From positions 1-35,989 of IMG/VR virus record IMGVR_UViG_3300010398_000022: a DNA stretch of 35,989 nt. One strand, given 5' to 3'. Shown here piece after piece: positions 15,065 to 33,183 of the stretch. Each line of letters opens with the position of its first letter. The first letter of the stretch is position 1. Source of the stretch: a virus. Taxonomy: Duplodnaviria; Caudoviricetes. Below the pieces are notes generated by a model. It saw nothing but the letters and a program-made list of their open reading frames with translations, was not told where the DNA came from and did no database searches. The position numbers and the translations under genes were made by a program.

Positions 15065-16003
15065 TTACGTGCCTGTAAATGTTATGCCATTGGTTGCTTG
15101 GGCTTCATACTCTTCCATCCAGACTTCATCAGAGTCACCTGCTATTGCTCTACTGTAGGTATCGAAATTGCATTGATTAAACTTCATTTTGTTAACTCCA
15201 GCAGCAACTATTGTATATTCTATATCTCTTGCTGTAAAGCCTCTCAAATCTCCCACTAGTGTGCCTCCAATAGTTACAGTGTTGAATGATAGTTTGATTT
15301 CTCTTTTGATAGGCTTACTAACCTTGTAGGTAGTAAGACCATTGAAAGACGGTCTTGCTATTGTCCAATTTACATCAAATTTGAAGCTGGTAGTATCATA
15401 TTTTACGCTGTTAATGTCCAGTGGGTCTGCTCCACTGGTTATGCCTGACCATGGTGTTAGTGAAGGTGCAGCTGCGTATGTGGCTGCTGGTGCAAAGGTT
15501 GGTGTTACAATCCAGTCTGTAACATCCTTGGCATGGAATGGCATCGTCACTTTAAAGCCTGATTCACGTTCTATAGTGCCAGAACAACCATCAAAACGAA
15601 CACCTTTGAATATCTTCCACTTTTCTACACCATTGATTAATGCTGTAAATAGAATTGAAATACTGACACCATTAGTGCCATTAGGTGCAACCATTGTTGG
15701 GTCTGCTGGTGTTGCTGAAGGTGCTACTGGGGTTAAGATGCCTCGTTTCATTAGTTTGAAATCTGAGGGTTGGAAAGCAATTTCACCTGTTATTTCTTCA
15801 TTAAGCCTAATCTTCTTTTGAACATCATATGAGCCTAATGGTCTAATCTGATTATTTGCTTCTGCTACATTTTCATTTAATGATTCAACAAATCCACATG
15901 ATACAAATGTTGGTCCTGATAATGGTAGTGTGCCATCTACAAGTTCCTCTGTAAACTGCGGCTGTTTGATAATGTCAGCTGCAGCAGTTGGGATATAGCT
16001 CAT
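15065..16003 (-). CDS. Major tail tube protein
   Basis: 312 aa, beta-rich two-domain pattern (ITGEIAFQP, IFKGVRFDGCSGTIE, FKFDVNWTI, REIKLSF); position before chaperone and tape measure. Confidence 0.75.
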   Translation of the reverse strand: MSYIPTAAADIIKQPQFTEELVDGTLPLSGPTFVSCGFVESLNENVAEANNQIRPLGSYDVQKKIRLNEEITGEIAFQPSDFKLMKRGILTPVAPSATPADPTMVAPNGTNGVSISILFTALINGVEKWKIFKGVRFDGCSGTIERESGFKVTMPFHAKDVTDWIVTPTFAPAATYAAAPSLTPWSGITSGADPLDINSVKYDTTSFKFDVNWTIARPSFNGLTTYKVSKPIKREIKLSFNTVTIGGTLVGDLRGFTARDIEYTIVAAGVNKMKFNQCNFDTYSRAIAGDSDEVWMEEYEAQATNGITFTGT

Positions 16004-16026
16004 TTAATAAAGCGAGGACTTTTTGA

Positions 16027-16039
16027 AATATGGGAACTA
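16027..16039 (-). promoter_or_regulatory. Late-promoter-like motif TAGTTCCCATATT
   Basis: Begins 36 nt upstream of tail tube ATG 16003; matches copies at 21636, 22302 and 33183. Confidence 0.55.
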
Positions 16040-16045
16040 TCAAAA

Positions 16046-16507
16046 TTGGCTTCACCGTATTCTACTGAATCAGAAGTTAGAGCATTATTAGGTAATTTAC
16101 GAAATCAGGTTGATGCTACTACCATAACCACTGCTATTGCCAGTGCTGATTCTCAGATTGATAGAATGACATTTAAGAGCTGGGTTGTTGGTGAAACTGA
16201 TTATCCAGCTATTCAGAAAGCATCTAGATATCTGGCTGCTGCTGAATGTATGATAAACATACAGGGCACTGAACCTACTCAACAAAGACTGTGGGATGAA
16301 GCAATGCTTATTATTCAGAGCATTACCAAGTTTGATACATCTAGTTTAACAGGTGATTATGTATCTTCTAGCCAGCCTGTAACCTATCCAATGAATCCAC
16401 AGGGCATAATATGGGCCAGTTCTAAATTTCCAAAGCTTAAGAAATCCTCTAATATGGAAAACTCTCAAATTACCGATGGCTTTTACTGGGTTAGTGGCAA
16501 TCCATAG
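16046..16507 (+). CDS. Head-tail adaptor (HK97 gp6/SPP1 gp15/Mu gp36-like)
   Basis: YSTESEVRALLG..ITTAIASADSQID..PAIQKASRYLAA helical pattern typical of adaptors; TTG start. Confidence 0.7.
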   Translation: MASPYSTESEVRALLGNLRNQVDATTITTAIASADSQIDRMTFKSWVVGETDYPAIQKASRYLAAAECMINIQGTEPTQQRLWDEAMLIIQSITKFDTSSLTGDYVSSSQPVTYPMNPQGIIWASSKFPKLKKSSNMENSQITDGFYWVSGNP

Positions 16508-17013
16508 TGGTATTACTATATCCAGATGAGTTAATCTATAATTATTTGAGATCATTATACACACCCTATCGCAATGCTTTGCCTGACCCTACTGTTTTGC
16601 CACTAGAAACTGATATTATGTGGAATTTCTTTGCTGGTGGGGTTAAAGACACTTCATTCATAGTGGCTGAAGACTATCAGCAGCCTGAGAGATTCAATTT
16701 AGGTGCTAGTGCTGCTAATTGGAAAGCTTCCTCAACCATTTATGTTATAACATTATGGACTAAGGAAGGTAAGCCACAATATTTGAAAGAATTTGCTAAT
16801 TTCTTAGAAAAGAAGTTGGTGGTTGTTGGTGGGTTGTCTTCTACATTGGCTATAACAGGTTTAAATGATTTGAAAGTTACACAGTTTTCTCTAAGTCAGG
16901 GCTTGAATAATTTTCATGGTTATGGCACCTTTAGCAATATACAAAATCCTGAAACAGATTGGTGGGTGTTGTCTGTTAATGTTCAGACAAGATATTTGAA
17001 GCCTGCTAACTAA
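16507..17013 (+). CDS. Putative tail terminator/neck protein
   Basis: 168 aa, coupled to the adaptor; alpha/beta pattern (IYVITLWT..EFANFLEKKL..WWVLSVNVQ) resembling tail terminators. Confidence 0.45.
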   Translation: MVLLYPDELIYNYLRSLYTPYRNALPDPTVLPLETDIMWNFFAGGVKDTSFIVAEDYQQPERFNLGASAANWKASSTIYVITLWTKEGKPQYLKEFANFLEKKLVVVGGLSSTLAITGLNDLKVTQFSLSQGLNNFHGYGTFSNIQNPETDWWVLSVNVQTRYLKPAN

Positions 17014-17490
17014 TTAATTAGCGGATAGGGTTTTGGTGCTTTCTCTAGGCAAGTTATCTATTGTGTTAGCTTGAGCTTCTTTGGGCACTAATGGCAATAG
17101 TCTGTTAAGCTGTTGCTGTGATATGTCTGCCTTTTCTTTCCAGTAGTCAAGGTCTTTTTGATGCTGATCTAGTATTTTCTTGGCTTCTGGTGACATTGTT
17201 GTTATTACTTCAGCCACAGTTCTAAGATCTTTTTGCTGTTCTACTGTTTTCTGGCCCATGGCTGTTGCTAGTTTTCCAACATCAACTACTGAATCAAGAG
17301 CCTTGCTTATCTTGGGATCATGGCTTTTGCTTTTTAGAAACGCTGCTACGGCTGCTATAATGCCACCTATTGTTGCTACTAGTGAACCTATAGCTGTGGT
17401 TAATGCTACTGCTGAGTCTACTGCTGTTTGTTGAATTACTGGCGGTGTAGCAGTAGGTGCTTGCATCAGTAGGGAACCGAAATCCATCAT
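17014..17490 (-). CDS. Single-TM membrane protein with coiled coil (holin-like candidate)
   Basis: Hydrophobic AVALTTAIGSLVATIGGIIAAVAAFL followed by KSK and a helical soluble domain. Confidence 0.55.
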   Translation of the reverse strand: MMDFGSLLMQAPTATPPVIQQTAVDSAVALTTAIGSLVATIGGIIAAVAAFLKSKSHDPKISKALDSVVDVGKLATAMGQKTVEQQKDLRTVAEVITTMSPEAKKILDQHQKDLDYWKEKADISQQQLNRLLPLVPKEAQANTIDNLPRESTKTLSAN

Positions 17491-17541
17491 ATGTTGTATG
17501 TTATAACCATAGGTAATCCAAGATAATTACTGCAAAATAAC

Positions 17542-17805
17542 ATGACTGAAGATGGCATTAATTGGGGTCTGATATTAATTCCAGCGGTAATTGGCATGAT
17601 AATTAGTGTTGTGTTGAATGGTATGAGCAAGATGAGTAAGACAGCAGATAACACACTAACAGGTTCAATAAAGATTAATGAAGTGGAGAAACGAGTTGAG
17701 GGTATTGAAAGTATAGTAATGAAGCAGGGTGAAAAGATAGAAAACATGTCTAGCAAGCTAGAGCTTCATAGTTATCGTTTAGACAAATTAAATCATACTC
17801 AATAG
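17542..17805 (+). CDS. Small single-TM coiled-coil protein
   Basis: 87 aa; WGLILIPAVIGMIISVVL followed by a heptad-like region. Confidence 0.6.
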   Translation: MTEDGINWGLILIPAVIGMIISVVLNGMSKMSKTADNTLTGSIKINEVEKRVEGIESIVMKQGEKIENMSSKLELHSYRLDKLNHTQ

Positions 17806-17818
17806 ATCGATTAAAAAA

Positions 17819-18346
17819 ATGCCACTATTCCCAGGATTACGTAATATTTCAATAGGGAAGCTAATCATGATATTTCTTACTATCAATTTCTTGTTTCTTG
17901 CCATACAGGGTGGATTGTCCAATTATTATTATCAGACTAATAGGTTGTTGAATGAAGAGATACTAAATCTTACACATCAAGTTCAAAGACAATCAGATCT
18001 CGAAGAATTAAAGATTAGATTGTTGCTAAACACTTCGATAGCTGAGCTAATAAGAAAAATAGATATTACAACACAAGCAAACCTGAACCTCTCTAAACAA
18101 TTGCAACAACAAAATATCTATTTCTTCAAGGCTGCAGCCACACAGGATAAATTCAGAAGTAATGTAACATCAAACATGCAAAATGTCCAACGAGATATAG
18201 ATGAGATATTAGCTAATCAGCAGGTCTTGTTTACACGTCTAGCATTCATAGCTGGTAATAAGACACTGAATCAAACACTTGATACTGTGCTACGTCATGA
18301 GCATGAACTAGCTAAATTATTACTTTTTGCTAATCGAACCCGATAG
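17819..18346 (+). CDS. N-terminally anchored coiled-coil membrane protein
   Basis: 175 aa; LIMIFLTINFLFLAI followed by an L/Q/N-rich helix with several N-x-S/T sequons. Confidence 0.6.
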   Translation: MPLFPGLRNISIGKLIMIFLTINFLFLAIQGGLSNYYYQTNRLLNEEILNLTHQVQRQSDLEELKIRLLLNTSIAELIRKIDITTQANLNLSKQLQQQNIYFFKAAATQDKFRSNVTSNMQNVQRDIDEILANQQVLFTRLAFIAGNKTLNQTLDTVLRHEHELAKLLLFANRTR

Positions 18347-18494
18347 CTTTTCTCTCTGCTTTTGAATGAGTATATTTCCATCGTTCAATCATTTTATATG
18401 CTCCACAATAGTCAGAGGCTTCATCTTCATGGTTACATGTGAAGCCATTTGGTTGAACATAAGGGCAGTTGAAAAAGTATTTACATTTCGACAT
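18330..18494 (-). CDS. 54-aa Cys4 microprotein MSKCKYFFNCPYVQPNGFTCNHEDEASDYCGAYK...
   Basis: Manual translation; C-x5-C-x9-C-x9-C. Start overlaps the end of 18481-19089 and the ORF fills the gap. Confidence 0.55.
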   Translation of the reverse strand: MSKCKYFFNCPYVQPNGFTCNHEDEASDYCGAYKMIERWKYTHSKAERKAIGFD

Positions 18495-19089
18495 TGGTTC
18501 GCTTGTTCTTTATTTGTTGTGTTGGACTTGTTGTTACATTGGTAGTTGTTGTAGTTATTTTGCCATTTTTCATTAGGTCATCAAACTCACCATTCAACCA
18601 ATCCTGGTATGAGTCTACTGTTATCTTTGTGCCTCCTTCTGGCATTATGTGATAAACTGTTCTTAGGCCTGCCTTCATTGTTATATCATTACATAGCTTG
18701 TGAAGGTTTTCAGCATGTTCTTTGTCAAATGGTATGAAATAGGCTATGGTTGTGTTTTTGCTTATTAGGCGTTGTTCATATGTGTTGTCTTCATTGATAA
18801 AACGTTCATAGATGGGTTCAAATTTTGGATAAACTCCTACTTCTGTTTGTGAATCACTCACATACGAACCTATTGGATTTTTTCCAGACCACATATGATT
18901 GTATACTATGTATTCTTCTCCTGGTGCCACAGCTATTCTTGTCATCTCTTGAATGGTTTCTTTCTTATCTGGGTCTGATTGTATTTGCTTTAGAATGAAT
19001 TTCCAGTGTTTTTCTGGTTCACTGTCTTCATAGGTTTCACCTATCTTGGCATATTCCTGTCTTAATTGTTCAGAGTCATTAAAAATCAT
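18481..19089 (-). CDS. Hypothetical protein downstream of major capsid gene
   Basis: 202-aa ORF; no recognised motif. Confidence 0.65.
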   Translation of the reverse strand: MIFNDSEQLRQEYAKIGETYEDSEPEKHWKFILKQIQSDPDKKETIQEMTRIAVAPGEEYIVYNHMWSGKNPIGSYVSDSQTEVGVYPKFEPIYERFINEDNTYEQRLISKNTTIAYFIPFDKEHAENLHKLCNDITMKAGLRTVYHIMPEGGTKITVDSYQDWLNGEFDDLMKNGKITTTTTNVTTSPTQQIKNKRTNVEM

Positions 19090-19127
19090 AAAATAATAAG
19101 ATATGAAATGAAGTGAAGTAAAAAGTT

Positions 19128-20354
19128 TTAGATGCTAGTGAGTTTCTTGCCCCATGCACTTCTGGTTGAAGGCACTACAATATCAAACCATTCCTTCTGT
19201 ATGAATATTGTTTGGTCAGGGTTGTATGTGTTTATTTGCTGGGTCTTTCTTGGTCCTTCAATATCTACTATGTATCTATGGTCTAGGATGTAAGCTGTAT
19301 CATTGGGAACGTCCTCGTTAATGATCCACTGTCGCGCCCATGGCACACCTGGAGGACCAGCAATTATCTGGTTCATGTCTGGTGTTAGTGAAGAATCTTG
19401 GTTGAATAGTCCACGAACCCATGTGTTTGTGTAAAAGTCAATCCATTGCTTTTCGTTAGTTACTATCATATCTACAGTTGCTAGTTTATCACTGTTTACT
19501 GCTAGTCTTACTGCGTTAAGATCGTTGTATGGTCTGTTTGTTGATTGAAGATTGCCAGCTGTATATGCTGCCCAGTCTGCTCCTGTTGCTGAGCCTAATG
19601 CTGCTAGTTTTGTGTTGATTCTGTTATATCTTGCTGCAGTAAAGTCTATAGCAATTTTTTCTAATATAAGAGCTTGAATATCCATTGTGAATTGTCTCAT
19701 ATAATATTCCTCTGTAAAGGCCATTCCTGCTCCTGCCTTTTTCAGCGTAACATTAGTCTGAGTAAATGCCCCATAACCTGAGGTGTCTATTGCTTCATTC
19801 TCCTTGTATCCAACTCTCACAGTTTGAGTTGTGTTGTTGTATTCAGGATAGACAATGTTTATGGTGTCTGATACAGTAAGCTTTTCTGGTATTCCCAGTA
19901 GGTTGTATTTCTGTGCTACTAGTTGCTGTCTGTTTAACAAGGCTTGAGAAACTTGGGTGACTGTTATCTGGGGAAATTCTGTTGAGGTTATTACTGCTGC
20001 TCCTTTAGCCTTGAATTTTTCATAATATCTTAAAGCCTGGTCTTGGAATTCAGGCATTATGTAGTCATAGGTTGCTTGGTCAGCATTCTTTTGTCCGCTA
20101 GCATTCTGGGCTTTCAGCTTCTTATAATTTTCATAGTTGGCTACTTTTGGCCAGTTATTCCAATGTTCACTGCTAATCTTTTCTACTGATTCAGTTGTTA
20201 CATGTATGAATCCTGATTTAGGATTATACATTGCATTCTGGACTTTGCCTTGGTCTTGATACTTCTTTACCTCTTTTGATACTAAACTTTCAATATATTC
20301 TGGATTGCTATTATATCCCATGCCAGAATATTGTGGGCTGTAAATCTGGCTCAA
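19128..20354 (-). CDS. Major capsid protein (HK97 fold) with ~120-aa N-terminal extension
   Basis: 408 aa, TTG start. GYKENEAID..TNVTLKKAGAGMAFTEEY, DMIVTNEKQW and WIINEDVPNDTAYILD follow the HK97 pattern. Follows protease and decoration genes. Confidence 0.85.
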   Translation of the reverse strand: MSQIYSPQYSGMGYNSNPEYIESLVSKEVKKYQDQGKVQNAMYNPKSGFIHVTTESVEKISSEHWNNWPKVANYENYKKLKAQNASGQKNADQATYDYIMPEFQDQALRYYEKFKAKGAAVITSTEFPQITVTQVSQALLNRQQLVAQKYNLLGIPEKLTVSDTINIVYPEYNNTTQTVRVGYKENEAIDTSGYGAFTQTNVTLKKAGAGMAFTEEYYMRQFTMDIQALILEKIAIDFTAARYNRINTKLAALGSATGADWAAYTAGNLQSTNRPYNDLNAVRLAVNSDKLATVDMIVTNEKQWIDFYTNTWVRGLFNQDSSLTPDMNQIIAGPPGVPWARQWIINEDVPNDTAYILDHRYIVDIEGPRKTQQINTYNPDQTIFIQKEWFDIVVPSTRSAWGKKLTSI

Positions 20355-20882
20355 TTAAGCTATCAACTCCACTGATTTCTCTAGAACATCTATCACTATG
20401 ATATCCCCATCAATTGTTGATGGTAATACAGCATCCATATCATGATGCTGCGTTATATTCAGAACATATGTGCCTATTACAGCATCATTATCAGTTCCAG
20501 CATAGACTTTTACCTTGTCTAGAGGTGTTGTGGCTCCTGGCATAACTGCTTGCCCTGGAGGTATGACTCCTTCAGCAACTCTCAGAATACGACCTGCTAC
20601 TATAACACTGCAAGTTGTATCTGTGTCTGCTGTGCCTCTTGTATAAGTTACAACACCAGTGATATTGTTAGTGCTTTGTGCTAGAATGGTTGTGTTGCCA
20701 CAAAAGCCAAATCTTCCAACACTGGCTGCTGCTCCTTTATCCCATCTACTGCTGGCTTTATTCCATACTAAGAGATCGCCATATAGTTGGCCTGTTCCTC
20801 CTGTTGTTGCTTTAGGTTGTGCACCTATTTGCTTAAAACTGAATCCTGGTTCAGCTAATGAATATCCTGATGGAACACCCAT
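20355..20882 (-). CDS. Putative capsid decoration/cement protein
   Basis: 175 aa, Gly/Thr/Val-rich; sits between scaffold and capsid genes (lambda gpD-like position). Confidence 0.6.
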   Translation of the reverse strand: MGVPSGYSLAEPGFSFKQIGAQPKATTGGTGQLYGDLLVWNKASSRWDKGAAASVGRFGFCGNTTILAQSTNNITGVVTYTRGTADTDTTCSVIVAGRILRVAEGVIPPGQAVMPGATTPLDKVKVYAGTDNDAVIGTYVLNITQHHDMDAVLPSTIDGDIIVIDVLEKSVELIA

Positions 20883-20885
20883 CGA

Positions 20886-21596
20886 TTAGGCAACTCCTTG
20901 ACTGGATTCAAACATATCCATTACCTCAATGATTTTTCTGTTATTATCAGAACTATTAGATGAGGCATTCTTAGCATTGAAATCTGGCACATCATGATTA
21001 GTATCGGCTACAATAGCAGCTGATTTGGCTACTGGAAATTGGGTCTGAGATTTACCAAATTTGTCAGCTAGATATTGCTCTAGTTCTGGCTCTGACATTA
21101 CTGAGGAATATCTTAATGCAATATCGACTTCCTTTTCGAAAGCATCTTTTGATTTGAATTGACTGCCATATCTTGCTACTTTTGAAGCTGCGTAATAGCG
21201 TTGCTCAGTTTGTTTCCTAATGTTATTGTCTTTCTCTAAGGCTGTGAATCGTTTGTTTAGGTCTTGAATAAGTTCTTGTTGAGTTATAATCATTTTCTGT
21301 AATTCAGGAACTGATTCAGGCAGGCCTGCTATCCTAGCTTCTTTTGGTTCTTCCTTATCTGGAGGACCATCTCTAACTCTAGTGTCACCTCTTTCTAGAC
21401 CTGGCTTTTGCTGGTCTGATTGTGGTTCAGGCTCTTGTTTTGATGGTGGTATATTGTTGATAATTGGTTGAGTGTTATTGCTTGTTGTAGTAGAAACAGG
21501 TTGCCATGCATAAACCAGTCCTGATGTATTATTTGTTGAGCCAACTTCTTGCGAGTTGCTTCTTATGGGACTCGCATTAGTAGTCTGTTCAGACAT
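20886..21596 (-). CDS. Nested in-frame scaffolding protein (236 aa, MSEQTTNASP...)
   Basis: Internal Met223 at the protease/scaffold boundary, with the conserved TAGTTCTCACAAT motif 40 nt upstream. Confidence 0.6.
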   Translation of the reverse strand: MSEQTTNASPIRSNSQEVGSTNNTSGLVYAWQPVSTTTSNNTQPIINNIPPSKQEPEPQSDQQKPGLERGDTRVRDGPPDKEEPKEARIAGLPESVPELQKMIITQQELIQDLNKRFTALEKDNNIRKQTEQRYYAASKVARYGSQFKSKDAFEKEVDIALRYSSVMSEPELEQYLADKFGKSQTQFPVAKSAAIVADTNHDVPDFNAKNASSNSSDNNRKIIEVMDMFESSQGVA

Positions 21597-22262
21597 ATCT
21601 ATGCTTTGAGTTTGCGAATTTGTATTGTGAGAACTACTAGAGAGAGCCTTTATTGCTCCTGTTACACAAAAGCCAGCAGTGCTTGCATTTTGCAGTTTTA
21701 TCTTACAGTCTTTGATATGGCCATAGCAATTGCCTCGTAGTTGCATCTTCTCTCCATAAGCAGGAACATCAACAAATGCCCAGTGTGAAATTATCCAGTG
21801 TTTGTATGTGTTTGTTCTATCCTCTTCTGGGAAATCTGATGGGAATGTGATAACCTGTGGACTGATATATCTAGGATAATCGGAATTAGCCGAGGCATTC
21901 TTTAGGGCCAGCTTGGCTGTTGGATCGGTAACCTGAAGCCATACTCTCCAATCGGCACCAAGACTGGGTTTATCCAATCTAACTGCTCTGGCTATTGAAA
22001 AAGCCTCTTGTCCTTGTAATAATTCAACTAATGTGGCATTAGGAAATTCAGGATGTATAAAATTGCCTTCTTGGTTTTTATCTAGTGGGTTTAATGGGTC
22101 TTTGGGCTTTATAACGCCTGGTCTGCCTAGTCCACTGGTAATATTTTTATCAATATCTTCTACCTTCCAGCCATTTTTGTTGAATGAATCATCTATAGCA
22201 GTATAAACAAGAAATAAATCATCTGTGCTGGGTTCATAGTGTTTGCTTTGGAATTCGAACAT
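20886..22262 (-). CDS. Prohead maturation protease fused to scaffolding protein
   Basis: N-half has NKNGW, RYISPQV and HWAFVDVPAYG (assemblin/Mu gpI-like). C-half is low-complexity plus coiled coil. Confidence 0.75.
   Translation of the reverse strand: MFEFQSKHYEPSTDDLFLVYTAIDDSFNKNGWKVEDIDKNITSGLGRPGVIKPKDPLNPLDKNQEGNFIHPEFPNATLVELLQGQEAFSIARAVRLDKPSLGADWRVWLQVTDPTAKLALKNASANSDYPRYISPQVITFPSDFPEEDRTNTYKHWIISHWAFVDVPAYGEKMQLRGNCYGHIKDCKIKLQNASTAGFCVTGAIKALSSSSHNTNSQTQSIDMSEQTTNASPIRSNSQEVGSTNNTSGLVYAWQPVSTTTSNNTQPIINNIPPSKQEPEPQSDQQKPGLERGDTRVRDGPPDKEEPKEARIAGLPESVPELQKMIITQQELIQDLNKRFTALEKDNNIRKQTEQRYYAASKVARYGSQFKSKDAFEKEVDIALRYSSVMSEPELEQYLADKFGKSQTQFPVAKSAAIVADTNHDVPDFNAKNASSNSSDNNRKIIEVMDMFESSQGVA
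21624..21636 (-). promoter_or_regulatory. Internal late-promoter-like motif TAGTTCTCACAAT
   Basis: Identical 13-mer to 33171-33183; begins 40 nt upstream of in-frame ATG 21596. Confidence 0.6.
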
Positions 22263-22289: not shown

Positions 22290-22302
22290 AGAATGAGAAC
22301 TA
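22290..22302 (-). promoter_or_regulatory. Late-promoter-like motif TAGTTCTCATTCT
   Basis: Begins 40 nt upstream of protease ATG 22262; its TAG doubles as the stop of the upstream gene. Confidence 0.6.
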
Positions 22303-23859
22303 ATCATTTGCAGCTATTTTACAATAGTTTATTGACAATTGTCTTGCATTGCTACCTATAGCTTCTATGTTGAAGTGTAGAAATAGGGGTGTGGTTGTGG
22401 CTGGGGTGTTGCTAGTTCCAGCTGGGGTATAAACTGTTCCATCTAATGTTACTTTGATTTTGCCTGCTACATTATCAAATTCTAATTGTAAGTCATGGAC
22501 TGATGTATTCTTTGCTACTGTGCTTATGAATGAGCTAGATGAGCCAGATACAGCATAAGTTATTTGAAAATTGCTATGAATATCAGAATAGCCAAACAAT
22601 AATCCAGATGCTCCACCTGATAATGGGTCATCCCCACCAGCATTCAAAGCAATAGTAGATTCAGTTGAGAGACCCATCCATACTCTATTATTTGAATTAT
22701 CTCCTATCTTGAATCTGAAATTAACAACAGGTGTATAGCTTCTTCTGGTAATGCTGCATAATGTTTTGAATCCAGCTATTGCTGCATCACTGCTATCTGT
22801 TGTGAAGGTTGTAAAGTTGTCTGTTGCGCTTGATTGGTCACCAGTTATAGAATTGCCATAGCCTGCTGCTCCTCCTAATATACCTGTTCCTGATGTTGCT
22901 CCACCCCAGAAGCCACCCCACTTTGTAACATCTGGCATAAATGCTGAGCTAGTTCCTGCTGATGGTAGTGCTGCCCATGCTGGTAGACCACCAACCATTG
23001 TTAGCACATTTCCAGCTGCACCATTAGCTATGCCTGAAAATGCTCCAGTTCCTGTGCCTCTTACCAAGCCTGTTAGTGAACTAGCACCAGTGCCACCATT
23101 AGCAACACCAAGAGTTCCAGTTACCTGTGAAGATAAATTCACAGTTCCTGCTAATGAGCCTAAAGTGATAGATGCTAGATTAACATCCAGGTTTATCTTG
23201 TTATTAGCAACATCATCTACTACTGACATGTTGCTAGAGGCAGCAAATAATTTCTTTAGCTCAAAATTAACTCCTGTTTTTTGTTTGAAAACACCAATTC
23301 CAGCAGTGCCTATGTTGCTAACAGTGTTGGTTTCTCCACCTCCTGCTACAACTGCAGGATCAGCATATTCTAGGTCTGTTGCTGCTGCGTTTACCCTCAA
23401 TAATTGTAAAGCTGTGCCTTTTCCTCTTCTGGAATATCTGGTTCCATTGTTTATTAGAATATCTCCTGCTGTGTTTGTTGTTGAGTGGTTTAGTGGGTTT
23501 AGATCAATGCTTATGGTTTTGTTGGTTAATGTTTCTGCTCCTGAAGAATTCCATGTGTTGGCTACTAAGGCATCTAGGTCTATCATTGAGCCTCCAGTCT
23601 TTTGTATTTTTAAATGATTGTCTGCTGGGTCTACCACAATGTGTCTTACTGTAGCTAGAGTTGGTGAAGCTGGTAGTGTTGCTGGGGCTTTTATTTCTAC
23701 ATGGTCTATGAATTGAAATGGATTTAGTATTCTAACTTGTCGTGAAGCTACAACTTTGCCATTGAAGATTTTCATCACTTCGAGCAAATCATTGGAACCA
23801 TACTTGGTTGCAGTTCCAGGATTGGCTATGTTAACCTCTTTAAAATCAGTAAAACTCAT
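22300..23859 (-). CDS. Fibre-like virion protein, paralogue 1
   Basis: 519 aa; shared N-terminus MSFTDFKEV..PG..TKYGS. Fibre motifs GDILINNGT, GETNTVSNIG, VTGTLGVANGGTGA and GNVLT; lectin-like C-terminus. Confidence 0.7.
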   Translation of the reverse strand: MSFTDFKEVNIANPGTATKYGSNDLLEVMKIFNGKVVASRQVRILNPFQFIDHVEIKAPATLPASPTLATVRHIVVDPADNHLKIQKTGGSMIDLDALVANTWNSSGAETLTNKTISIDLNPLNHSTTNTAGDILINNGTRYSRRGKGTALQLLRVNAAATDLEYADPAVVAGGGETNTVSNIGTAGIGVFKQKTGVNFELKKLFAASSNMSVVDDVANNKINLDVNLASITLGSLAGTVNLSSQVTGTLGVANGGTGASSLTGLVRGTGTGAFSGIANGAAGNVLTMVGGLPAWAALPSAGTSSAFMPDVTKWGGFWGGATSGTGILGGAAGYGNSITGDQSSATDNFTTFTTDSSDAAIAGFKTLCSITRRSYTPVVNFRFKIGDNSNNRVWMGLSTESTIALNAGGDDPLSGGASGLLFGYSDIHSNFQITYAVSGSSSSFISTVAKNTSVHDLQLEFDNVAGKIKVTLDGTVYTPAGTSNTPATTTPLFLHFNIEAIGSNARQLSINYCKIAAND

Positions 23860-23860
23860 T

Positions 23861-25171
23861 TTAGATAAACACCACCCATGCCCATGTCAAGTTATTAGTG
23901 CCTGACACTGGAGCATAACCATAATTCACTACAAGATTAACAGAGTCTGCTGTAATCCAATAATGAGCACCATTATGTTCAGCTGGATAAGCTGGTTGAT
24001 AATTAGCATAATTAGCCACTGAGGACGTTGGTGTTACAGCAAACTTTGTGGGGGTTGTGCCAGCTCCATGGGCTATGTTGAAAGTTTTGGTTACTCCATT
24101 ACCTGAGAAAGTAGCAGTGCCACCTAGCACAGTTGGCACAATTACACTTGTCCATCCTATATCAGTTCCTCCAGAATTTACTCGTAAAGCTTGGTTGGCT
24201 GTGCCTCGTGGTATTCTAATATATTTAGCAGCAGTTGTATCATATGCAAGAATATCCCCTTGAGCATTTGTCGTTGAATGTTTTACAGTATTCGTATCAA
24301 TATTGTAAGTCTTGCCTGAAGGTGTGTTGGGATACTGTGCATCTGTTATTGAACCACCTAATGAGCTTAGGGTTAGGTTTGCTTGAGCAACATCAATGTC
24401 TATTTCCTTGTTCACTGTATCATTCGTAACTGTAATTTTGTTAGAACCAGCATTGATGTTCTTAAATTGAAGGTCAACACCAACTTTGGCATTAAATACT
24501 CCTGTTCCTCCCACTCCTTGGTTTGAAGCTGTATTAGCTTCTCCAGTGCTGCTTCCGGGTGGTGTTTGGGCATCCCATCTTGATAGTGAAGTGTTCCATG
24601 TTGGGACTTGGCCATTAGTTGGGTTCATTGTTGAAGCATCAGCCAGGTCTTTTATTTTAGAGCCTGTTTTGTCTATCTTTGTCCAGGCTATTGCTGCTGT
24701 TGTGCTTATATTGGCATTGGCTATCTTCTGGTATTGTAGGTCTGTTGCTCCTACTGTTAATACCTCATCCTGATTGCCTTTTTGAAATCTGATATATTTT
24801 ACACCATTGTTTTTTAGAATATCTCCCAAGACATTGTTGGTTGGGTTGGTGTAGGCTAATGTGTTGGTATCAAGAGAGAATAGTTGTAGGTCTGTTAGAG
24901 TTCCACTAACATCCTGAACTTTTAGGTGAAAGTCAGAAGGGTCTATGAATAAATTGACATAGTTGCTTGAGGTGGGTGCTGTTGGTATGCTGGGTGCAGC
25001 CATCAGTTCTATTCGGTCAGAGAAACGCCATGGATTCTTTATGTTGGGTCTTTTATTGGCTACAACTTTAGCATTTAGAATTTGAACTATTTCTTTTAGT
25101 TGGTCGCTACCATAATGGGTTGAATCTCCTGGATCTACATTTGGGAGTTCTTTAAAATCGGTATACGACAT
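23861..25171 (-). CDS. Fibre-like virion protein, paralogue 2
   Basis: 436 aa; MSYTDFKEL..PG..THYGS; GDIL repeats, PTNGQVPTWN, GEANTASNQG, C-terminal FSGNGVTKTFNIAHG. Confidence 0.7.
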   Translation of the reverse strand: MSYTDFKELPNVDPGDSTHYGSDQLKEIVQILNAKVVANKRPNIKNPWRFSDRIELMAAPSIPTAPTSSNYVNLFIDPSDFHLKVQDVSGTLTDLQLFSLDTNTLAYTNPTNNVLGDILKNNGVKYIRFQKGNQDEVLTVGATDLQYQKIANANISTTAAIAWTKIDKTGSKIKDLADASTMNPTNGQVPTWNTSLSRWDAQTPPGSSTGEANTASNQGVGGTGVFNAKVGVDLQFKNINAGSNKITVTNDTVNKEIDIDVAQANLTLSSLGGSITDAQYPNTPSGKTYNIDTNTVKHSTTNAQGDILAYDTTAAKYIRIPRGTANQALRVNSGGTDIGWTSVIVPTVLGGTATFSGNGVTKTFNIAHGAGTTPTKFAVTPTSSVANYANYQPAYPAEHNGAHYWITADSVNLVVNYGYAPVSGTNNLTWAWVVFI

Positions 25172-25175
25172 ATCT

Positions 25176-25568
25176 CTATTGTTTAGCTTGCTCCTGTTGT
25201 GGTAAAGTGAACTTAAACTTGACTAGAGCTTCAGCATTTTTTCCTGCTGTTATTGTTATGGCTGTATTACTGGTGATTAGTTGGTCATATAATTGTGAAT
25301 GCATTGAATATAGCTCTTGGAATGTTTTGAATAAGTTTTCGTTAATTAAAAGTTGTTTGGCTGTTTCATCCTTTTGTTGGGCTAGTTCTCTATCTAATCT
25401 GTTTACTGTGCCAGCTATTGAATCTCTTTCTGATTTGAGAGTTTCTATTTGAGTTCTAGCCATTTCTAGATGGGCTGTAAGGTCTTCAGCTTGTGTTAGA
25501 GCTACCATTGTTGGGTTTGGGTTAATGCCTATCTTTTGTGGTTTCTCAGTCTGGATTTCATTAGTCAT
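25176..25568 (-). CDS. Coiled-coil protein
   Basis: 130 aa with heptad pattern (LEMARTQIETLKSERDSI..LDRELAQQK). Confidence 0.6.
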   Translation of the reverse strand: MTNEIQTEKPQKIGINPNPTMVALTQAEDLTAHLEMARTQIETLKSERDSIAGTVNRLDRELAQQKDETAKQLLINENLFKTFQELYSMHSQLYDQLITSNTAITITAGKNAEALVKFKFTLPQQEQAKQ

Positions 25569-26535
25569 ATGCTTCTATCCAGGCTCCTTCAGTTGATATA
25601 GTTCTTGCTGTTGTGGTTGTTGTTACTGCTACTTCATTGAAGAATAAGTTAGAAGTTAATGGTGGTAAATCAGTTGTAATGGTTTGAACTACATTATCAA
25701 ATAATACTGTGATGTTTCCTGATGCTGGCCAGTTTATTTCTATTGTATGCATATTGGCGTCTTTGGCTATTGGTCCTGATACATTATCAGCAGTTACTGG
25801 TGATACAGCATCATTATGCCATATTGTCCAGTTTGTTGAGCCAGTTCCAGTTTCAACAAAGCCAACCAAAATACCACCATCACCCGTTGCCAAAGGCTGA
25901 GTGGCTGCTGCTACTGGTAATGTGCTATTAGAAGTAAAGCCAAACAGAAATTTAGATGAAGTGGTAGAATCTATCTTGGCTCTGGTTACTGCTCTAGCTC
26001 CAAATAATCGTCTACCTATTCCAACTCCTGCAGTTGGGCTAACAATACCAGCTATGTTGCCTGCTACTGCTCCACTTGTTATATTTGATAAAATACCATC
26101 TGTTGTATCAAATGTGTTGGTTACAGTTCCAGCTCCAGTAAGAACATGCTGTGATAATATGCCTCCTAATGTGTTGGCTGTTGTTAATGTCGTGCCAGCA
26201 ACAGGCATCCAATAACCTGTTCTTTCTACCATTGGTGAAACTAATCCAGTAACACCAAGGTCTTGTATCAGACCAGTTGAGCTTTTTAATGCTAGTCTAT
26301 GAGTAGTTGAATCAATGTAAAGGCTTTGGTAATTTGTTGATGGGCTTGAAGGTGCTACAATTTCTTTCATATCAAAGCTGGCATCCCATCGCCATGGGTT
26401 TATTACATGGGGTCTTTTGTCTGCTGTAACTTTGCCATTCAATATCTGCATTATATCCAGCAAGTCTTGGCTACCATACTTGGTGGTTGATCCTGCTGCT
26501 GGGGTTGTTACCTCTCTAAAATCTACAAATGACAT
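25561..26535 (-). CDS. Fibre-like virion protein, paralogue 3 (short)
   Basis: 324 aa; MSFVDFREV..AG..TKYGS N-domain joined almost directly to a lectin-like C-domain similar to that of 22300-23859. Confidence 0.7.
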   Translation of the reverse strand: MSFVDFREVTTPAAGSTTKYGSQDLLDIMQILNGKVTADKRPHVINPWRWDASFDMKEIVAPSSPSTNYQSLYIDSTTHRLALKSSTGLIQDLGVTGLVSPMVERTGYWMPVAGTTLTTANTLGGILSQHVLTGAGTVTNTFDTTDGILSNITSGAVAGNIAGIVSPTAGVGIGRRLFGARAVTRAKIDSTTSSKFLFGFTSNSTLPVAAATQPLATGDGGILVGFVETGTGSTNWTIWHNDAVSPVTADNVSGPIAKDANMHTIEINWPASGNITVLFDNVVQTITTDLPPLTSNLFFNEVAVTTTTTARTISTEGAWIEAYD

Positions 26536-28662: not shown

Positions 28663-28672
28663 CTTCTGCTAA

Positions 28673-29938: not shown

Positions 29939-29941
29939 TTT

Positions 29942-30382
29942 TTAAACAAAGACCAATGTTACAGTGCCAGCTCCTAATCTTTGGTCTACCTTTTGTTGTG
30001 CTGTATTCTTTTGTGCTTGTGTTAGATTTAGATTTCCAATTGTAACTGTTAGAGTTCTATTTGGAAATGTGCCATTCCATTGATATGAATAAGGCACATC
30101 ATCACGCCAGTCTACTTGTCCCTTGCTATCTGGTGCTTTTCCTACTATTGTTGGAAAATTTTCTAATAGAGTGCTAACACTGTATGATTGTTTTTGATGT
30201 TCTTCTAAGAGTTTATCATGGTGTTGTTGAATGTTAGCTGTGTTTGCTGCTGGGTGCTGACTACAGCGTTGTTTTATGTTTGTAGCTGTGTGTGGTCTGG
30301 TGCTACCTAAGTCTAAATCCCATTGATATTCGATAATACATCCACAAGGTGCAGTCCATGTTGTTTGCTGTATGTTAACCAG
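29942..30382 (-). CDS. 146-aa protein with non-canonical start (CTG, or ATA at 30373); CxC...CxxH motif
   Basis: Not in the ORF track. The frame (M)VNIQQTTWTAPCGCIIEYQWD..QRCSQHP..LGAGTVTLVFV fills the gap exactly and ends 3 nt before the next ATG. In-frame stops lie just upstream. Confidence 0.7.
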   Translation of the reverse strand: MVNIQQTTWTAPCGCIIEYQWDLDLGSTRPHTATNIKQRCSQHPAANTANIQQHHDKLLEEHQKQSYSVSTLLENFPTIVGKAPDSKGQVDWRDDVPYSYQWNGTFPNRTLTVTIGNLNLTQAQKNTAQQKVDQRLGAGTVTLVFV

Positions 30383-30794
30383 CTTGATTAATCACTATCC
30401 CAAATATTGAGCCAGGAGTTATAACGATTTTATCGTCTTCATCTGCTGCTGCCCAGTAAAAGTCAGTGCCAGCATGAACACTTAGAGCATCAATTGTTGA
30501 TGCTACTGTGCCCTTTGTTCCAGGACCAATCTTACATGTTGATACACTAGCAGGTGCATTAGCATCTAGTGCTATAGGAGTATAAGAAGACATTCCAGTT
30601 CCAGCAACAGATTCAGTGATTAAGTCTATTGAATGGTAGTTATCATCGGTTGTTAATCCAGTGCCATCATCTGTTGTAACTCTTATCTTTTTTATTTTGA
30701 GAGTTGTGTTTGCTGGTGCATCTATTTCTATTGCTAATTGGTCTGTGTTAGCTGTAAAGCTGGCAGTAACCACAGCACTGTATATGTTTGTCAT
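30375..30794 (-). CDS. Small beta-sandwich virion protein, paralogue A
   Basis: 139 aa; IEIDAPANTTLKIKKIRV..YWAAADEDDKIVITP. Confidence 0.65.
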   Translation of the reverse strand: MTNIYSAVVTASFTANTDQLAIEIDAPANTTLKIKKIRVTTDDGTGLTTDDNYHSIDLITESVAGTGMSSYTPIALDANAPASVSTCKIGPGTKGTVASTIDALSVHAGTDFYWAAADEDDKIVITPGSIFGIVINQAG

Positions 30795-31282
30795 TCAACA
30801 TGGTCAACACTTACAGTAAACTTTTGTGATACAACTGCTGACTGAATAACAACAGCAAAACATGAAGCTGGTTTAACTACTATCATATCGTCATCATCTC
30901 TCGCTAACCATTCATAAAGTGCTCTTGTATTTATTGAGATTTGGTCTATGATGGTGACATTTGTTGTGCCTAAGGCTAGGGCTGTGGTTGTTGTTTTTAT
31001 CTTACATGAACCTGAAGCTGGCAATACTGAGATAGGTAAGTTAGCGTTTCGTAGAACTGGTGTGAATGCTGTTGAACTGCCAGCTGTTGTTGTATCCCAT
31101 CTGTATAGTTTAACCATGAAATAGTTATCAAGTCCAACAGTTGCTGTTCCATCTGAATAACCAACTCTTACACGTTTTACTTTGATAGTTATACCAGTTG
31201 GTGCCTTTAGTTCTACAAATACATCAGCAGTGTTTATTGTTGTGTTTGAAGTGGCTGATACATTGGTTGTATATTGAACCAT
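30791..31282 (-). CDS. Small beta-sandwich virion protein, paralogue B
   Basis: 163 aa; VELKAPTGITIKVKRVRV..EWLARDDDDMIVVKP, clearly similar to 30375-30794. Confidence 0.65.
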   Translation of the reverse strand: MVQYTTNVSATSNTTINTADVFVELKAPTGITIKVKRVRVGYSDGTATVGLDNYFMVKLYRWDTTTAGSSTAFTPVLRNANLPISVLPASGSCKIKTTTTALALGTTNVTIIDQISINTRALYEWLARDDDDMIVVKPASCFAVVIQSAVVSQKFTVSVDHVE

Positions 31283-31316
31283 TTAGTTAGTTACCTATCT
31301 CATTTCCTTTGCCATG

Positions 31317-32375
31317 TTAATTAAGAAGTGACCTCTTCTTTGAGCTCTTTTTGATAACTGTGCTGTTTATCAATATGTTTTCTATGAGTTTTCTTACTGG
31401 TCTGTTGGGCACTTGAATATAGGTTGGTGTTGATGATATGGTTATGGTTGTTGGAATTACTCTGACTCTTGATCTTAGTTGAGTTGGTGCTACTGCTCCC
31501 ACAGTTACAGTTTCAGTGAGAGTTGCTACTTTGTTATGGGCTAGTATCTTATCAGCAGTTGATAATATGGTTACTGTTTGAGTTACAGTTCGCTTTTTGG
31601 TTGTTAATCTGGTTAAGCTGCTTGTTGTTGAGCTTACTGTTGTTGGTATGGCTTTAATTGAGCCTTTCTTTCTAGTTGGTGCTACAGCTCCTATGGTTAC
31701 TGTGCTTGTTAATGCTGCTACAGCATTATTTTGAAAGGTTATGGTTTGAGGTGTCTCAATGTATGAAGCATGATTGCTTACTGTGTTGCTGTTGGCATTG
31801 TTTTCTGTGGTTCCATCATAGTAGAAGGTTAGGGTTCTGGCTGTTGCATTGTTTTGTGTTATCTGAAACATGCATTCATAAACAATAACACAGCCACTCG
31901 GTATGCTGTTTACTGCTGCTCCTGCAAATGTGCCAAATAATGAGGTTTCTGTGGCTGAAGAACTGGGTTCTGTGTAATCAGTGTTGGTTGAGCCATCTAT
32001 AATGTTGCCTACCTTGGTTTGTGTGACTGGATTCCAGACATAAACACATATTGTTATAGATTTACCTGAACCTGAACATGGGAAGTTGGCATTAACATTA
32101 TCTTCCTCAACAGCAAAAGCATAATTCCATGTGTTTGCTGCTATGCTGGTATTGCTGAATGTTCTAGTAACAAATCTAGTGAAGTGTAATACTTGAGAAC
32201 TGGTTGATGCATTTGAAGGACAGTCAATGCTGTTCTGGGCTGTGCCTATCGTAGTGTTCATAGTTCTGTTGGTGCCTGCTGAATCACCATTGTTGTCTAC
32301 TGCTAGTGAAGATTGTTCAGTAGTTGGTAAGCCAGCTTGGGCGTTAGCTGTAGAATGAAAATAAAGCTTTGTCAA
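31317..32375 (-). CDS. Virion protein with globular N-domain and C-terminal TETVT-type repeats
   Basis: 352 aa, TTG start; C-terminal LTSTVTI/VTQTVTI/LTETVTV repeats like those of 26545-28662. Confidence 0.65.
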   Translation of the reverse strand: MTKLYFHSTANAQAGLPTTEQSSLAVDNNGDSAGTNRTMNTTIGTAQNSIDCPSNASTSSQVLHFTRFVTRTFSNTSIAANTWNYAFAVEEDNVNANFPCSGSGKSITICVYVWNPVTQTKVGNIIDGSTNTDYTEPSSSATETSLFGTFAGAAVNSIPSGCVIVYECMFQITQNNATARTLTFYYDGTTENNANSNTVSNHASYIETPQTITFQNNAVAALTSTVTIGAVAPTRKKGSIKAIPTTVSSTTSSLTRLTTKKRTVTQTVTILSTADKILAHNKVATLTETVTVGAVAPTQLRSRVRVIPTTITISSTPTYIQVPNRPVRKLIENILINSTVIKKSSKKRSLLN

Positions 32376-32379
32376 TAAA

Positions 32380-32859
32380 TCAGCTTAAGTTATTAGTCCA
32401 TGAAATTTTGAGCGTATCATTAGCTACCAGAGTTCCTGAACCTGTTGAGAAGTTAGCAATGTGAGGCATTGTTCCAGCTGATGAGGCATTGAATAAGGCT
32501 GAAGCTAAAACAGAAGTGAATGAACCTGTTGCAGTAAAAGTGTGCTCAACCAATGTTGAATTACTGGCTGCGGTATGTGTTTTAGTAACAGCATCAGCTC
32601 TTGATAAACCATTAGTTACAATCTCTCCAGTTAACGTGGTGTTCCCGACAGCGGGTGTGATTACAGATTCAGTGCTTGCTATAAAGCCTGCTCCTCTTGT
32701 TCCAGTTGAAGTGTTTGTGTAGATTTGGGCATGCATCCAGTCTTTACCAGCATCAGTTAGTAGGTTATGTTGAAATAATGCTATTACTTTTTGTTTACCT
32801 GTTTTATGTTTTGTAACAACTGCTGAGCAAAATCCTGCTGATGCAAATTGCGACATCAT
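32380..32859 (-). CDS. Putative virion structural protein (fibre-base type)
   Basis: 159 aa; NLLTDAGKD..GNTTLTGEI..ALFNASSAGTM..LVANDTLKISW, a pattern seen in phage structural proteins. Related to 7523-8173. Confidence 0.6.
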   Translation of the reverse strand: MMSQFASAGFCSAVVTKHKTGKQKVIALFQHNLLTDAGKDWMHAQIYTNTSTGTRGAGFIASTESVITPAVGNTTLTGEIVTNGLSRADAVTKTHTAASNSTLVEHTFTATGSFTSVLASALFNASSAGTMPHIANFSTGSGTLVANDTLKISWTNNLS

Positions 32860-33144
32860 TTATGTTGCAACCTCTTGTTTAGTTGAACTGCGTTGAACTG
32901 TTCCCATCATCTTTGAATCGCATTCTTCACACCTTAAAGAAATATTCTTAGAACCTGTGTTTGGGTCTATTGGGTGGTAAGGCAATTGTGTGAAATATAT
33001 CTTTACACCACATCTTACACAAGCTGTTTCTCCAGATTCAGTATGAGCAGGATTATCAATACAGTGTTCATTCCATTCTACAACACTTTCTGTTTCAAAG
33101 TCATGAGCTGAGCATTTGAATGCTCCACCTTCTACGAAAGCCAT
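32860..33144 (-). CDS. Zinc-binding protein
   Basis: 94 aa with CSAH..HC..H, CVRC and CEEC. Confidence 0.7.
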   Translation of the reverse strand: MAFVEGGAFKCSAHDFETESVVEWNEHCIDNPAHTESGETACVRCGVKIYFTQLPYHPIDPNTGSKNISLRCEECDSKMMGTVQRSSTKQEVAT

Positions 33145-33170
33145 TTAATAACTAACAATAATGTCTATTA

Positions 33171-33183
33171 ATTGTGAGAACTA
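33171..33183 (-). promoter_or_regulatory. Late-promoter-like motif TAGTTCTCACAAT
   Basis: Begins 39 nt upstream of ATG 33144, the first gene of the 11-kb block. Confidence 0.6.

What the first reader, a model, noticed from the sequence alone, without database searches (positions are those of the whole stretch)
16003..33183. Conserved non-TATA element TAGTTC(T/C)CA 36-40 nt upstream of structural operons: candidate virus-specific late promoter
Seen: TAGTTCTCACAAT (-39, ATG 33144), TAGTTCTCATTCT (-40, 22262), TAGTTCTCACAAT (-40, internal 21596) and TAGTTCCCATATT (-36, 16003). Weaker variants are TAGTTATTACCAT (-43, 1839), TAGTTATAT (-44, 1901) and TAGTTTAG (-40, portal). No clear TATA box follows most copies. 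Inference: a binding site for a viral activator or TFB/TBP substitute that redirects host RNA polymerase.
Basis: partly seen in the sequence, partly recalled or inferred. Interest (0 to 1): 0.75.

Follow-up and report, generated by a model that had tools for sequence, protein, structure and literature searches.

The report
TATA-less promoter of archaeal virion genes
A short DNA word, TAGTTCTCA, sits 35-47 bases before the starts of particle-building genes, and twice inside the likely capsid-protease gene, across a group of tailed viruses that likely infect soil ammonia-oxidising archaea; it is likely a promoter that replaces the usual archaeal TATA box, and a cultured archaeon's provirus carries it too, so it can be tested.

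Summary
Confirmed and extended. Four exact copies lie 36-40 nt before starts (0.67 expected). The word precedes the orthologous protease (12 of 13 relatives), tail-tube (11 of 11) and Zn-finger genes (7 of 7), is strand-specific, and follows genes through rearrangement. It also lies in frame inside the protease gene, 37-43 nt before a conserved internal start (14 of 14), marking a nested scaffold gene. A fifth window copy near the gene's end heads the capsid operon. Provirus Nvie-Pro1 of Nitrososphaera viennensis has 13 copies, 12 of them 33-42 nt before starts. A pyrimidine-purine step at motif+35 places the likely start site, so the word would cover the BRE and half the TATA position. Best reading: a TATA-less late-promoter core read by a dedicated factor. 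A candidate family of unknown fold sits before the terminase genes in all five elements checked. Not shown: start sites, timing, the factor, or absence from host chromosomes. The weak TAGTTAT and portal copies score poorly. The scan noted this word before in four other viral genomes; I found no paper on it.

The parts
33175..33183 (-). TAGTTCTCA, -39 of the Zn-finger-like gene 33144 that heads a long structural gene row
   Evidence: conserved before 7 of 7 orthologues
32860..33144 (-). 94-aa Cys/His-rich gene, first gene after the element
22294..22302 (-). TAGTTCTCA, -40 of the protease-scaffold gene
   Evidence: TA[G/C]TTC before 12 of 13 orthologues, the 13th has TGGTTCTCA
20886..22262 (-). 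Likely prohead protease (N-terminal ~220 aa) fused to a scaffold domain
   Evidence: predicted model matches VZV protease Z 7.0, T4 gp21 Z 6.4 and phage prohead proteases; invariant H70 and S134
21628..21636 (-). In-frame internal TAGTTCTCA (T-AGT-TCT-CA), -40 of internal ATG 21596
   Evidence: 14 of 14 relatives with an in-frame ATG/TTG at +37, +40 or +43; also G004 and G005 and Nvie-Pro1
20886..21596 (-). Likely nested scaffold gene, 236 aa
   Evidence: inferred from the conserved internal start and the protease fold upstream
20947..20955 (-). Fifth copy, TAGTTCTGA, 70 nt before the stop of the protease-scaffold gene; likely promoter of gene 20882 and the capsid gene
   Evidence: score 16.0; 14 of 14 relatives; absent in G004 and G005
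20886..20921 (-). Possible short leader ORF (ATG at +34 or +40 of the fifth copy), ending at the scaffold stop 3 nt before the next ATG
   Evidence: in-frame ATG/TTG at +37 to +46 in 15 of 15; inferred
19128..20882 (-). Gene 20882 (175 aa) and likely major capsid protein (408 aa), downstream of the fifth copy
   Evidence: capsid label inferred from gene order and size
16031..16039 (-). TAGTTCCCA, -36 of the tail-tube gene, in a divergent gap
   Evidence: 11 of 11 orthologues
15065..16003 (-). Tail-tube gene, first of the tail operon (neck, tape measure)
   Evidence: Pfam Phage_tube_2; 34% identical to the Nvie-Pro1 major tail protein; PHROGs for neck and tape measure
35506..35519 (-). Degenerate copies (TAGTTTAG at -40, TAGTTTGTA at -35) before the likely portal gene 33464-35479
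   Evidence: score 0.2; full TAGTTCTCA at -35 in G001
1856..1883 (.).
   Evidence: scores 4.0, 5.1; not kept in G002

Best explanation
TA(G/C)TTC(T/C)CA is likely the core promoter element of the virion-building genes in tailed viruses that likely infect Nitrososphaeraceae, placed about 35 bases before the predicted transcription start, where BRE and the first half of the TATA box normally lie. Shown by sequence: fixed orientation, a 35-47 nt distance to starts, conservation with orthologous genes through rearrangement, two in-frame copies inside the protease gene, and no TATA at a fixed offset. Inferred: (1) transcription starts at motif+34 to +37, giving leaderless or 1-12 nt leader mRNAs; (2) host RNA polymerase is recruited by a dedicated factor that reads this word in place of the normal TBP-TATA/TFB-BRE contact, most likely a virus-encoded one; (3) this confines expression to late infection; (4) the middle copy gives the scaffold its own mRNA, herpesvirus-style, and the 3' copy boosts the capsid operon through a short coupled leader ORF. 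The best candidate factor (about 0.3) is an uncharacterised, mostly helical 280-430-aa family encoded upstream of the terminase genes.
For: Conservation: protease 12 of 13, tail tube 11 of 11, Zn-finger 7 of 7 orthologues in viruses with capsid identity down to 41%. TAGTT lies within 70 nt of the capsid start in only 2 of 23 rows (one virus, fetched twice) and of the neck start in 0 of 4. Position: 41 of 166 TAGTTCY lie 33-48 nt before a start, against 1.4% pooled for 119 letter permutations and 7 of 166 for the reverse orientation. Nvie-Pro1: 13 copies, all on the coding strand, 12 of them 33-42 nt before an in-frame start, with mode 35 (two starts re-assigned by me). Start-site signature: a YR step at +35 in 21 of 29 de-duplicated sites whose start codon is at least 40 nt away, against 3-31% at +26 to +34. 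In held-out G004/G005 it is at +35 in 9 of 11 sites. Host amo promoters have TATA/BRE 23-24 nt before the ATG (PMC3379541, passages). DNA-level constraint inside the gene: T-AGT-TCY in 30 of 30 in-frame sites although AGT is 46 of 269 Ser codons, and T-ACT-TCT (Thr-Ser) in G004/G005. Structural regions hold 18 copies in 118 kb, the rest 0 in 79 kb. Candidate family present upstream of the terminase in G001, G002, G004, G005 and Nvie-Pro1; P0233 bridges the Nvie-Pro1-1 and G001/G002 forms.
Against: No RNA data, so start site and timing are untested. No host chromosome was examined. Relatives fall into a few clades (several are close), so counts overstate independence. No TFB-like gene in G001 or complete G002. 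The candidate has no Pfam family or fold match; its direct profile comparisons with the Nvie-Pro1-1 family are not significant (E 0.07-0.48); in G002 its own gene carries the element at -40, so it may be just a late gene; and in Nvie-Pro1 it abuts TerL and could be the small terminase. In G004/G005 alone the permutation control is weak: TACTTC 7 of 78, TAGTTC 3 of 46 and not top-ranked. Three of the 7 'structural-region' copies in G002 are not before a start. Many protease promoters have TTTTAT 14-16 nt after the word, so a weak TATA may act there. The protease model has mean pLDDT 58.9 and its Z-scores are under 8.
Confidence: 0.62

Rival explanations
1. It is a promoter element, but read by a host factor, such as one of the many TFB paralogues or a host stress activator. 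The viruses would have borrowed a host promoter class, so it is not virus-specific.
For: Thaumarchaeal genomes hold 8-11 TFBs (PMC4084955, passage). The word covers the BRE position. It is shared by very distant viruses (portal about 20% identical) and by Nvie-Pro1, which lacks replication genes and may be domesticated (PMC6563490, section 10). No viral TFB was found.
Against: 0 copies in 3,865 bases of host flank and 0 in 79 kb of non-structural viral regions, though the host sample is far too small. A conserved viral gene family accompanies the element in 5 of 5 elements checked.
Confidence: 0.22
2. It is an activator site just upstream of an ordinary but weak BRE-TATA promoter, so TBP and TFB still bind in the normal way.
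For: TTTTAT follows 14-16 nt after the word in many protease promoters, and positions +18 and +19 are 88-94% A/T in intergenic sites. Archaeal activators recruit TBP/TFB (PMC5569661, part 2).
Against: With the shortest motif-to-start distance at 34-35 nt and the YR step at +35, a canonical TATA would have to overlap the word itself. Positions +14 and +16 are often C, and internal and tail-tube sites lack the TTTTAT.
Confidence: 0.09
3. It is an RNA-level signal in a longer mRNA that directs translation initiation 35-47 nt downstream, for example a site for a translational activator.
For: Every conserved copy, including the 3'-end one, has an in-frame start 35-47 nt downstream. In haloarchaeal virus HFTV1 the nested scaffold is made by an internal translation start without higher RNA coverage (bioRxiv 10.64898/2026.09.13.751334, passages).
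Against: No conserved RNA structure: mean folding z -0.39, 16% of 63 sites below -2. The YR step stays at +35 while the start codon moves. The word heads operons in divergent gaps and is missing before most internal genes.
Confidence: 0.04
4. It is a terminator or a protein-level Ser-Ser motif and has nothing to do with initiation.
For: In Nvie-Pro1, 6 of 13 copies use the TAG stop of the upstream gene and downstream bases are 41% T. Internal copies encode Ser-Ser.
Against: Back-to-back divergent copies have no upstream co-directional gene. Downstream T content is only 29% in the window's family. Codon choice is fixed, and Ser changes to Thr while the DNA word is kept.
Confidence: 0.03

Closest known systems
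Archaeal BRE + TATA core promoter, e.g. amoA/amoC/amoX of ammonia-oxidising archaea (PMC3379541, passages) and archaeal virus promoters with the SIRV GTC motif (PMC5569661, parts 1-2)
   Same: Same distance class from leaderless or short-leader starts; host RNA polymerase presumably used, as no viral polymerase was seen in G002.
   Different: The conserved word is pyrimidine-rich TA(G/C)TTC(T/C)CA, with no TATA at a fixed offset. The SIRV motif lies downstream of an intact TATA box.
Virus-specific late core promoters: T4 TATAAATA with gp55, and beta/gamma-herpesvirus late promoters with a viral pre-initiation complex (T4 recalled and named in an earlier scan note; herpesvirus from the search listing of PMC6541308)
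   Same: A short virus word marks structural genes and would replace the host core element.
   Different: The reading factor is unknown here; no sigma, TBP or TFB homologue was identified; timing is unmeasured.
Nested protease/scaffold genes: herpesvirus UL26/UL26.5 and OsHV-1 (PMC11565193, passages), HFTV1 gp17/gp17.5 and lambda (bioRxiv 10.64898/2026.09.13.751334, passages)
   Same: A protease domain of the herpes-assemblin/T4-gp21 fold is followed by an in-frame internal start for the scaffold.
   Different: HFTV1 was read as translational with no known motif. Here a promoter-like word sits before the internal start, pointing to a separate transcript as in herpesviruses.
Ltr/RinA late activators of Gram-positive phages (PMC3753634, abstract; PMC3152322, listing)
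   Same: The candidate gene lies near the end of the early region, upstream of the terminase genes.
   Different: Ltr proteins are small and basic and bind repeats at one terS promoter. The candidate is 280-430 aa, the word occurs singly at many promoters, and binding is untested.

Membership tests
Canonical archaeal BRE-TATA promoter | A/T-rich TATA box ending about 23-24 nt before a leaderless start | tested here: not met
   No fixed-offset TATA in logos of 33 intergenic and 63 total sites; that position is occupied by TCTCA-NNN if the start is at +35. A TTTTAT patch in protease promoters is a partial exception.
Canonical archaeal BRE-TATA promoter | Purine-rich BRE directly upstream of TATA (consensus recalled) | tested here: not met
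   Consensus TnnTAGTTCYCAnnnY
Canonical archaeal BRE-TATA promoter | Fixed distance to a pyrimidine-purine start site | tested here: met
   YR at +35 in 21 of 29 and 9 of 11 held-out sites; predicted, not mapped
Virus-specific late promoter | Confined to structural genes | tested here: met
   18 copies in 118 kb of structural regions and 0 in 79 kb of the rest; boundaries set by me
Virus-specific late promoter | Absent from host promoters | tested here: inconclusive
   0 in only 3,865 host bases; no host chromosome reachable
Virus-specific late promoter | Late timing of transcription | not testable with these tools
   No RNA holder listed
Virus-specific late promoter | Virus-encoded recognition factor | tested here: inconclusive
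   No Pfam TFIIB in G001/G002; a candidate family co-occurs in 5 of 5 elements, without fold or family match
Nested protease/scaffold module (UL26/UL26.5 type) | N-terminal assemblin-fold protease | tested here: met
   Top fold matches are VZV protease (Z 7.0, rmsd 3.6, 116 aligned) and T4 gp21 (Z 6.4, rmsd 4.8, 121 aligned), plus many prohead proteases; moderate-quality model
Nested protease/scaffold module (UL26/UL26.5 type) | Conserved in-frame internal start after the protease domain | tested here: met
   14 of 14 relatives plus the window, G004 and G005
Nested protease/scaffold module (UL26/UL26.5 type) | Separate scaffold transcript | not testable with these tools
   Only the promoter-like word is seen
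Ltr/RinA late activator system | Small basic activator binding repeats upstream of terS | tested here: not met
   The candidate is 280-430 aa with no Pfam family shared across its members; the word occurs singly at many promoters

The most novel reading that the evidence does not exclude
Tailed viruses of ammonia-oxidising archaea share an ancient TATA-independent late transcription system: a virus-encoded initiation factor of an unassigned fold (the pre-terminase family) reads TA(G/C)TTC(T/C)CA in place of TBP/TFB, and even drives a herpesvirus-style separate scaffold transcript from inside the protease gene. It would be an archaeal counterpart of T4 gp55 and the herpesvirus late complex, testable in cultured N. 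viennensis.
Probability: 0.3. Interest if true: 0.9.

Novelty: new variant of a known kind. Interest (0 to 1): 0.66.

Why it matters
Archaeal viruses have no RNA polymerase of their own, and how they switch the host enzyme to virion genes is an open question; reviewed archaeal virus promoters keep TATA and BRE (PMC5569661, parts 1-2). A conserved non-TATA core word would define a late-promoter class and point to an unknown initiation mechanism for archaeal RNA polymerase. Its presence 12 times at promoter distance in the provirus of a cultured, harmless soil archaeon turns a metagenomic pattern into a bench experiment. It also gives a practical tool: the word predicts true start codons, a hidden scaffold gene and operon borders in viruses of soil nitrifiers.

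Tried and rejected
Relaxed matching (1 mismatch) gave no excess over chance. The weak TAGTTAT pair and the window's portal copy score below all training sites; I do not count them. No viral TFB by Pfam in G001, G002 or the genome G003. The 370-aa candidate's model (pTM 0.35) found no match in PDB, PDB-wide or viral fold libraries, none in the protein atlas and none in solved-structure sequences; this excludes nothing. Direct profile comparison of the candidate with the Nvie-Pro1-1 family was not significant in five tries, and a global alignment did no better than block shuffles. The Nvie-Pro1-1 family gave no IMG/VR locus. No RNA holder was listed. Sequence search for the protease domain in Pfam and PDB failed (one member DUF2213, E 0.21). 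Ten paper searches found no description of this word, and 'promoter' occurs 0 times in the main text of PMC11849493, PMC6563490, PMC11705971 and PMC9859776. Their supplements and the 2011 Nvie-Pro1 paper were not seen and could mention it.
Full report
What the window is. The 36-kb contig is the particle-building half of a tailed virus: tape measure and neck genes by PHROGs, tail tube by Pfam, and likely capsid, protease-scaffold and portal genes by order and homology. The host is likely a soil Nitrososphaeraceae archaeon. Among 50,697 phage records, the window's tail tube matches only Nitrososphaera provirus Nvie-Pro1 (34%, E 1e-28), and so does the terminase of the close relative G001 (39%, E 5e-78). 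G001 carries a multicopper oxidase, a gene reported in soil AOA viruses (PMC9859776 and PMC11849493, passages). One relative sits in a MAG labelled Parafilimonas; the same DNA is a separate contig (L020), so I take it as mis-binned.

The observation. Four exact TAGTTCYCA copies lie on the coding strand at -39, -40, -40 and -36 of starts 33144, 22262, 21596 and 16003; 0.67 are expected and 0 of 100 shuffles reach 4. One mismatch gives 16 against 18 expected. A matrix trained on 69 sites from other viruses scores these four 12.4-18.8 and finds a fifth at 20955 (16.0). It also finds one antisense hit of 14.7 at 32261 that is not before a start.

Conservation. A capsid alignment fetched 28 loci. 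I dropped the window's own record, duplicates and short loci, leaving 15 relatives. TA[G/C]TTC precedes the protease gene in 12 of 13 with that region (35-44 nt; the 13th has TGGTTCTCA), the tail tube in 11 of 11 (36-47 nt), and the Zn-finger gene in 6 of 6, plus G001 (40-47 nt). In the distant clade the Zn-finger row has moved next to the tail tube on the other strand, and the gap then holds two back-to-back copies, one for each direction. Genes inside operons mostly lack it: capsid 2 of 23 rows (one virus twice), neck 0 of 4. Over 19 sequence pieces, 41 of 166 TAGTTCY lie 33-48 nt before a start, against 1.4% pooled for 119 permuted words and 7 of 166 in reverse orientation; the runners-up are shifted overlaps of the same word. 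These relatives form only a few clades, so counts overstate independence.

Inside the protease gene. The N-terminal domain folds (pLDDT 58.9) like herpesvirus assemblin and T4 gp21 (Z 7.0 and 6.4, with unrelated MCE domains at 5.2-5.4) and like phage prohead proteases. Right after it, 14 of 14 relatives and the window have T-AGT-TCT-CW with an in-frame ATG/TTG 37, 40 or 43 nt later, giving a 236-aa likely scaffold in the window. A second in-frame copy lies 64-88 nt before the stop in 15 of 15. It has an in-frame ATG/TTG at +37 to +46 in 15 of 15 (13% per four-codon window by chance), and in one clade this is the Leu codon TTG in 8 of 8 although TTG is 22 of 176 Leu codons. This suggests a short leader ORF coupled to the capsid operon. 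G004 and G005 keep the middle copy as T-ACT-TCT-CAC, Thr in place of Ser, but lack the 3' copy. The constraint is thus on the DNA word. Herpesviruses transcribe the nested scaffold separately (PMC11565193, passages), whereas in HFTV1 it was read as translational with no known motif (bioRxiv 10.64898/2026.09.13.751334, passages).

A cultured host. Nvie-Pro1 (FR725450) has 13 TAGTTCY, all on the coding strand. Twelve lie 33-42 nt before an in-frame start, mostly 35, including portal, protease-capsid, major tail, tail fibre and an internal start in the protease-capsid gene; two of these starts I re-assigned. Six use the upstream gene's TAG stop, which raises a terminator reading that the divergent and internal copies elsewhere do not fit.

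Where transcription would start. The shortest motif-to-start distances are 34-35 nt. Among 29 de-duplicated sites with starts at least 40 nt away, a pyrimidine-purine step falls at +35 in 21 and at +37 in 20, against 3-31% at +26 to +34. In G004/G005, not used for that profile, it falls at +35 in 9 of 11 sites and at +34 in the other two. I used 11 of the 17 sites listed, leaving out five before internal starts of other genes and one before a 72-aa ORF. Host amo genes have TATA/BRE 23-24 nt before the ATG (PMC3379541, passages). The word at -35 to -27 would therefore cover the BRE and the first half of the TATA position, and the logo shows no TATA at a fixed offset. A TTTTAT patch in protease promoters keeps the activator-plus-weak-TATA rival alive.

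Late and virus-specific? TA[G/C]TTC[T/C]CA occurs 18 times in 118 kb of structural regions and never in 79 kb of the rest of four genomes. I set the borders and left out 6.5 kb of G001 between portal and terminase; 3 of G002's 7 copies are not at starts. Timing is inferred from gene content. Host specificity is untested: 0 copies in 3,865 host bases, and no chromosome could be reached. Hosts have 8-11 TFBs (PMC4084955, passage).

The factor. No TFIIB match in G001 or the complete G002. Apart from packaging genes, they share few genes, among them a 370/362-aa gene upstream of the terminase genes (28%). Its profile finds 98 clusters. One of them, P0233, joins an N-terminal domain of the Nvie-Pro1-1 family (72 bits; tblastn to Nvie-Pro1 only, E 6e-7) to the C-terminal domain of the G001/G002 family (152 bits with itself left out). 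A sub-alignment fetched three more viral loci (two distinct viruses); both carry the word before portal and protease and inside the protease gene, although the permutation control on them alone is weak. The family is present in all five word-bearing elements whose pre-terminase region was available; the window ends before it. Against it: no fold or Pfam assignment, direct profile links not significant, its own gene carries the word in G002, and in Nvie-Pro1 it could be the small terminase. I give it about 0.3.

Verdict. The element is real and conserved. It works like a virus late core promoter and fails the sequence test for a canonical BRE-TATA promoter. I put 0.62 on a TATA-less late promoter read by a dedicated, probably viral, factor, 0.22 on a host factor, and the rest on lesser rivals. 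Ten paper searches found no description; supplements and the 2011 Nvie-Pro1 paper were not seen. Earlier notes of this scan report the same or a near-identical word in four other viral genomes, one of them also inside a fused protease-capsid gene; these are unchecked notes, not independent proof. New here are the two conserved in-frame copies with the leader ORF, the +35 start-site signature, the Nvie-Pro1 test system and the candidate family.

Noticed in passing
window 20886-22262 and 19128-20354, minus strand: The tripeptide NAS occurs four times in the protease-scaffold protein (residues 122, 192, 229, 432) and once near the capsid N-terminus (84; Ala85 nearly invariant), resembling the Ala-Ser cleavage sites of herpesvirus assemblins (recalled). 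Possible maturation sites.
   Followed up: partly
window 16046-17013, plus strand: Two conserved genes, likely head-tail joining by their place, run opposite to the structural row and lack the element; A/T-rich boxes lie upstream. In the G002 clade the first is fused to a much longer protein.
   Followed up: no
window 1856-1883: Perfect inverted repeat ATAGTTAT-N12-ATAACTAT between divergent genes 1839 and 1901; could be an operator for a dimeric protein.
   Followed up: partly
L038 1353-2245 (Nvie-Pro1-1): The gene reads in two frames in this record, while homologues are single 274-366-aa proteins, several named from Nitrososphaera genomes. N-terminal helical domain and C-terminal CxxC pairs; function unknown.
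   Followed up: partly
L012, L015, L018, L020, L023, L024 tail-tube and internal sites: The word is often followed 9 nt later by a second partial copy (TAGTTCTCA-AAGTTCTC), hinting at tandem binding.
   Followed up: no
L018, L023, G002 portal upstream regions: In this clade the portal gene has GCTTCATTTT(T)ATA about 45 nt and TAGTT about 22 nt before the start instead of the standard element, so it may use an ordinary TATA promoter.
   Followed up: no
window 23861-26535 and 22300-23859, minus strand: Three paralogous structural genes share an N-terminal domain (MS[F/Y]xDF[K/R]E...KYGS), repeated in all relatives.
   Followed up: no
G002 (L037 3286-4914), G004 and G005 early regions: A 543-aa GHKL-type ATPase lies in the early region of G002, and proteins of similar size and start lie at the same place in G004 and G005; no polymerase or helicase was recognised in G002.
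   Followed up: no
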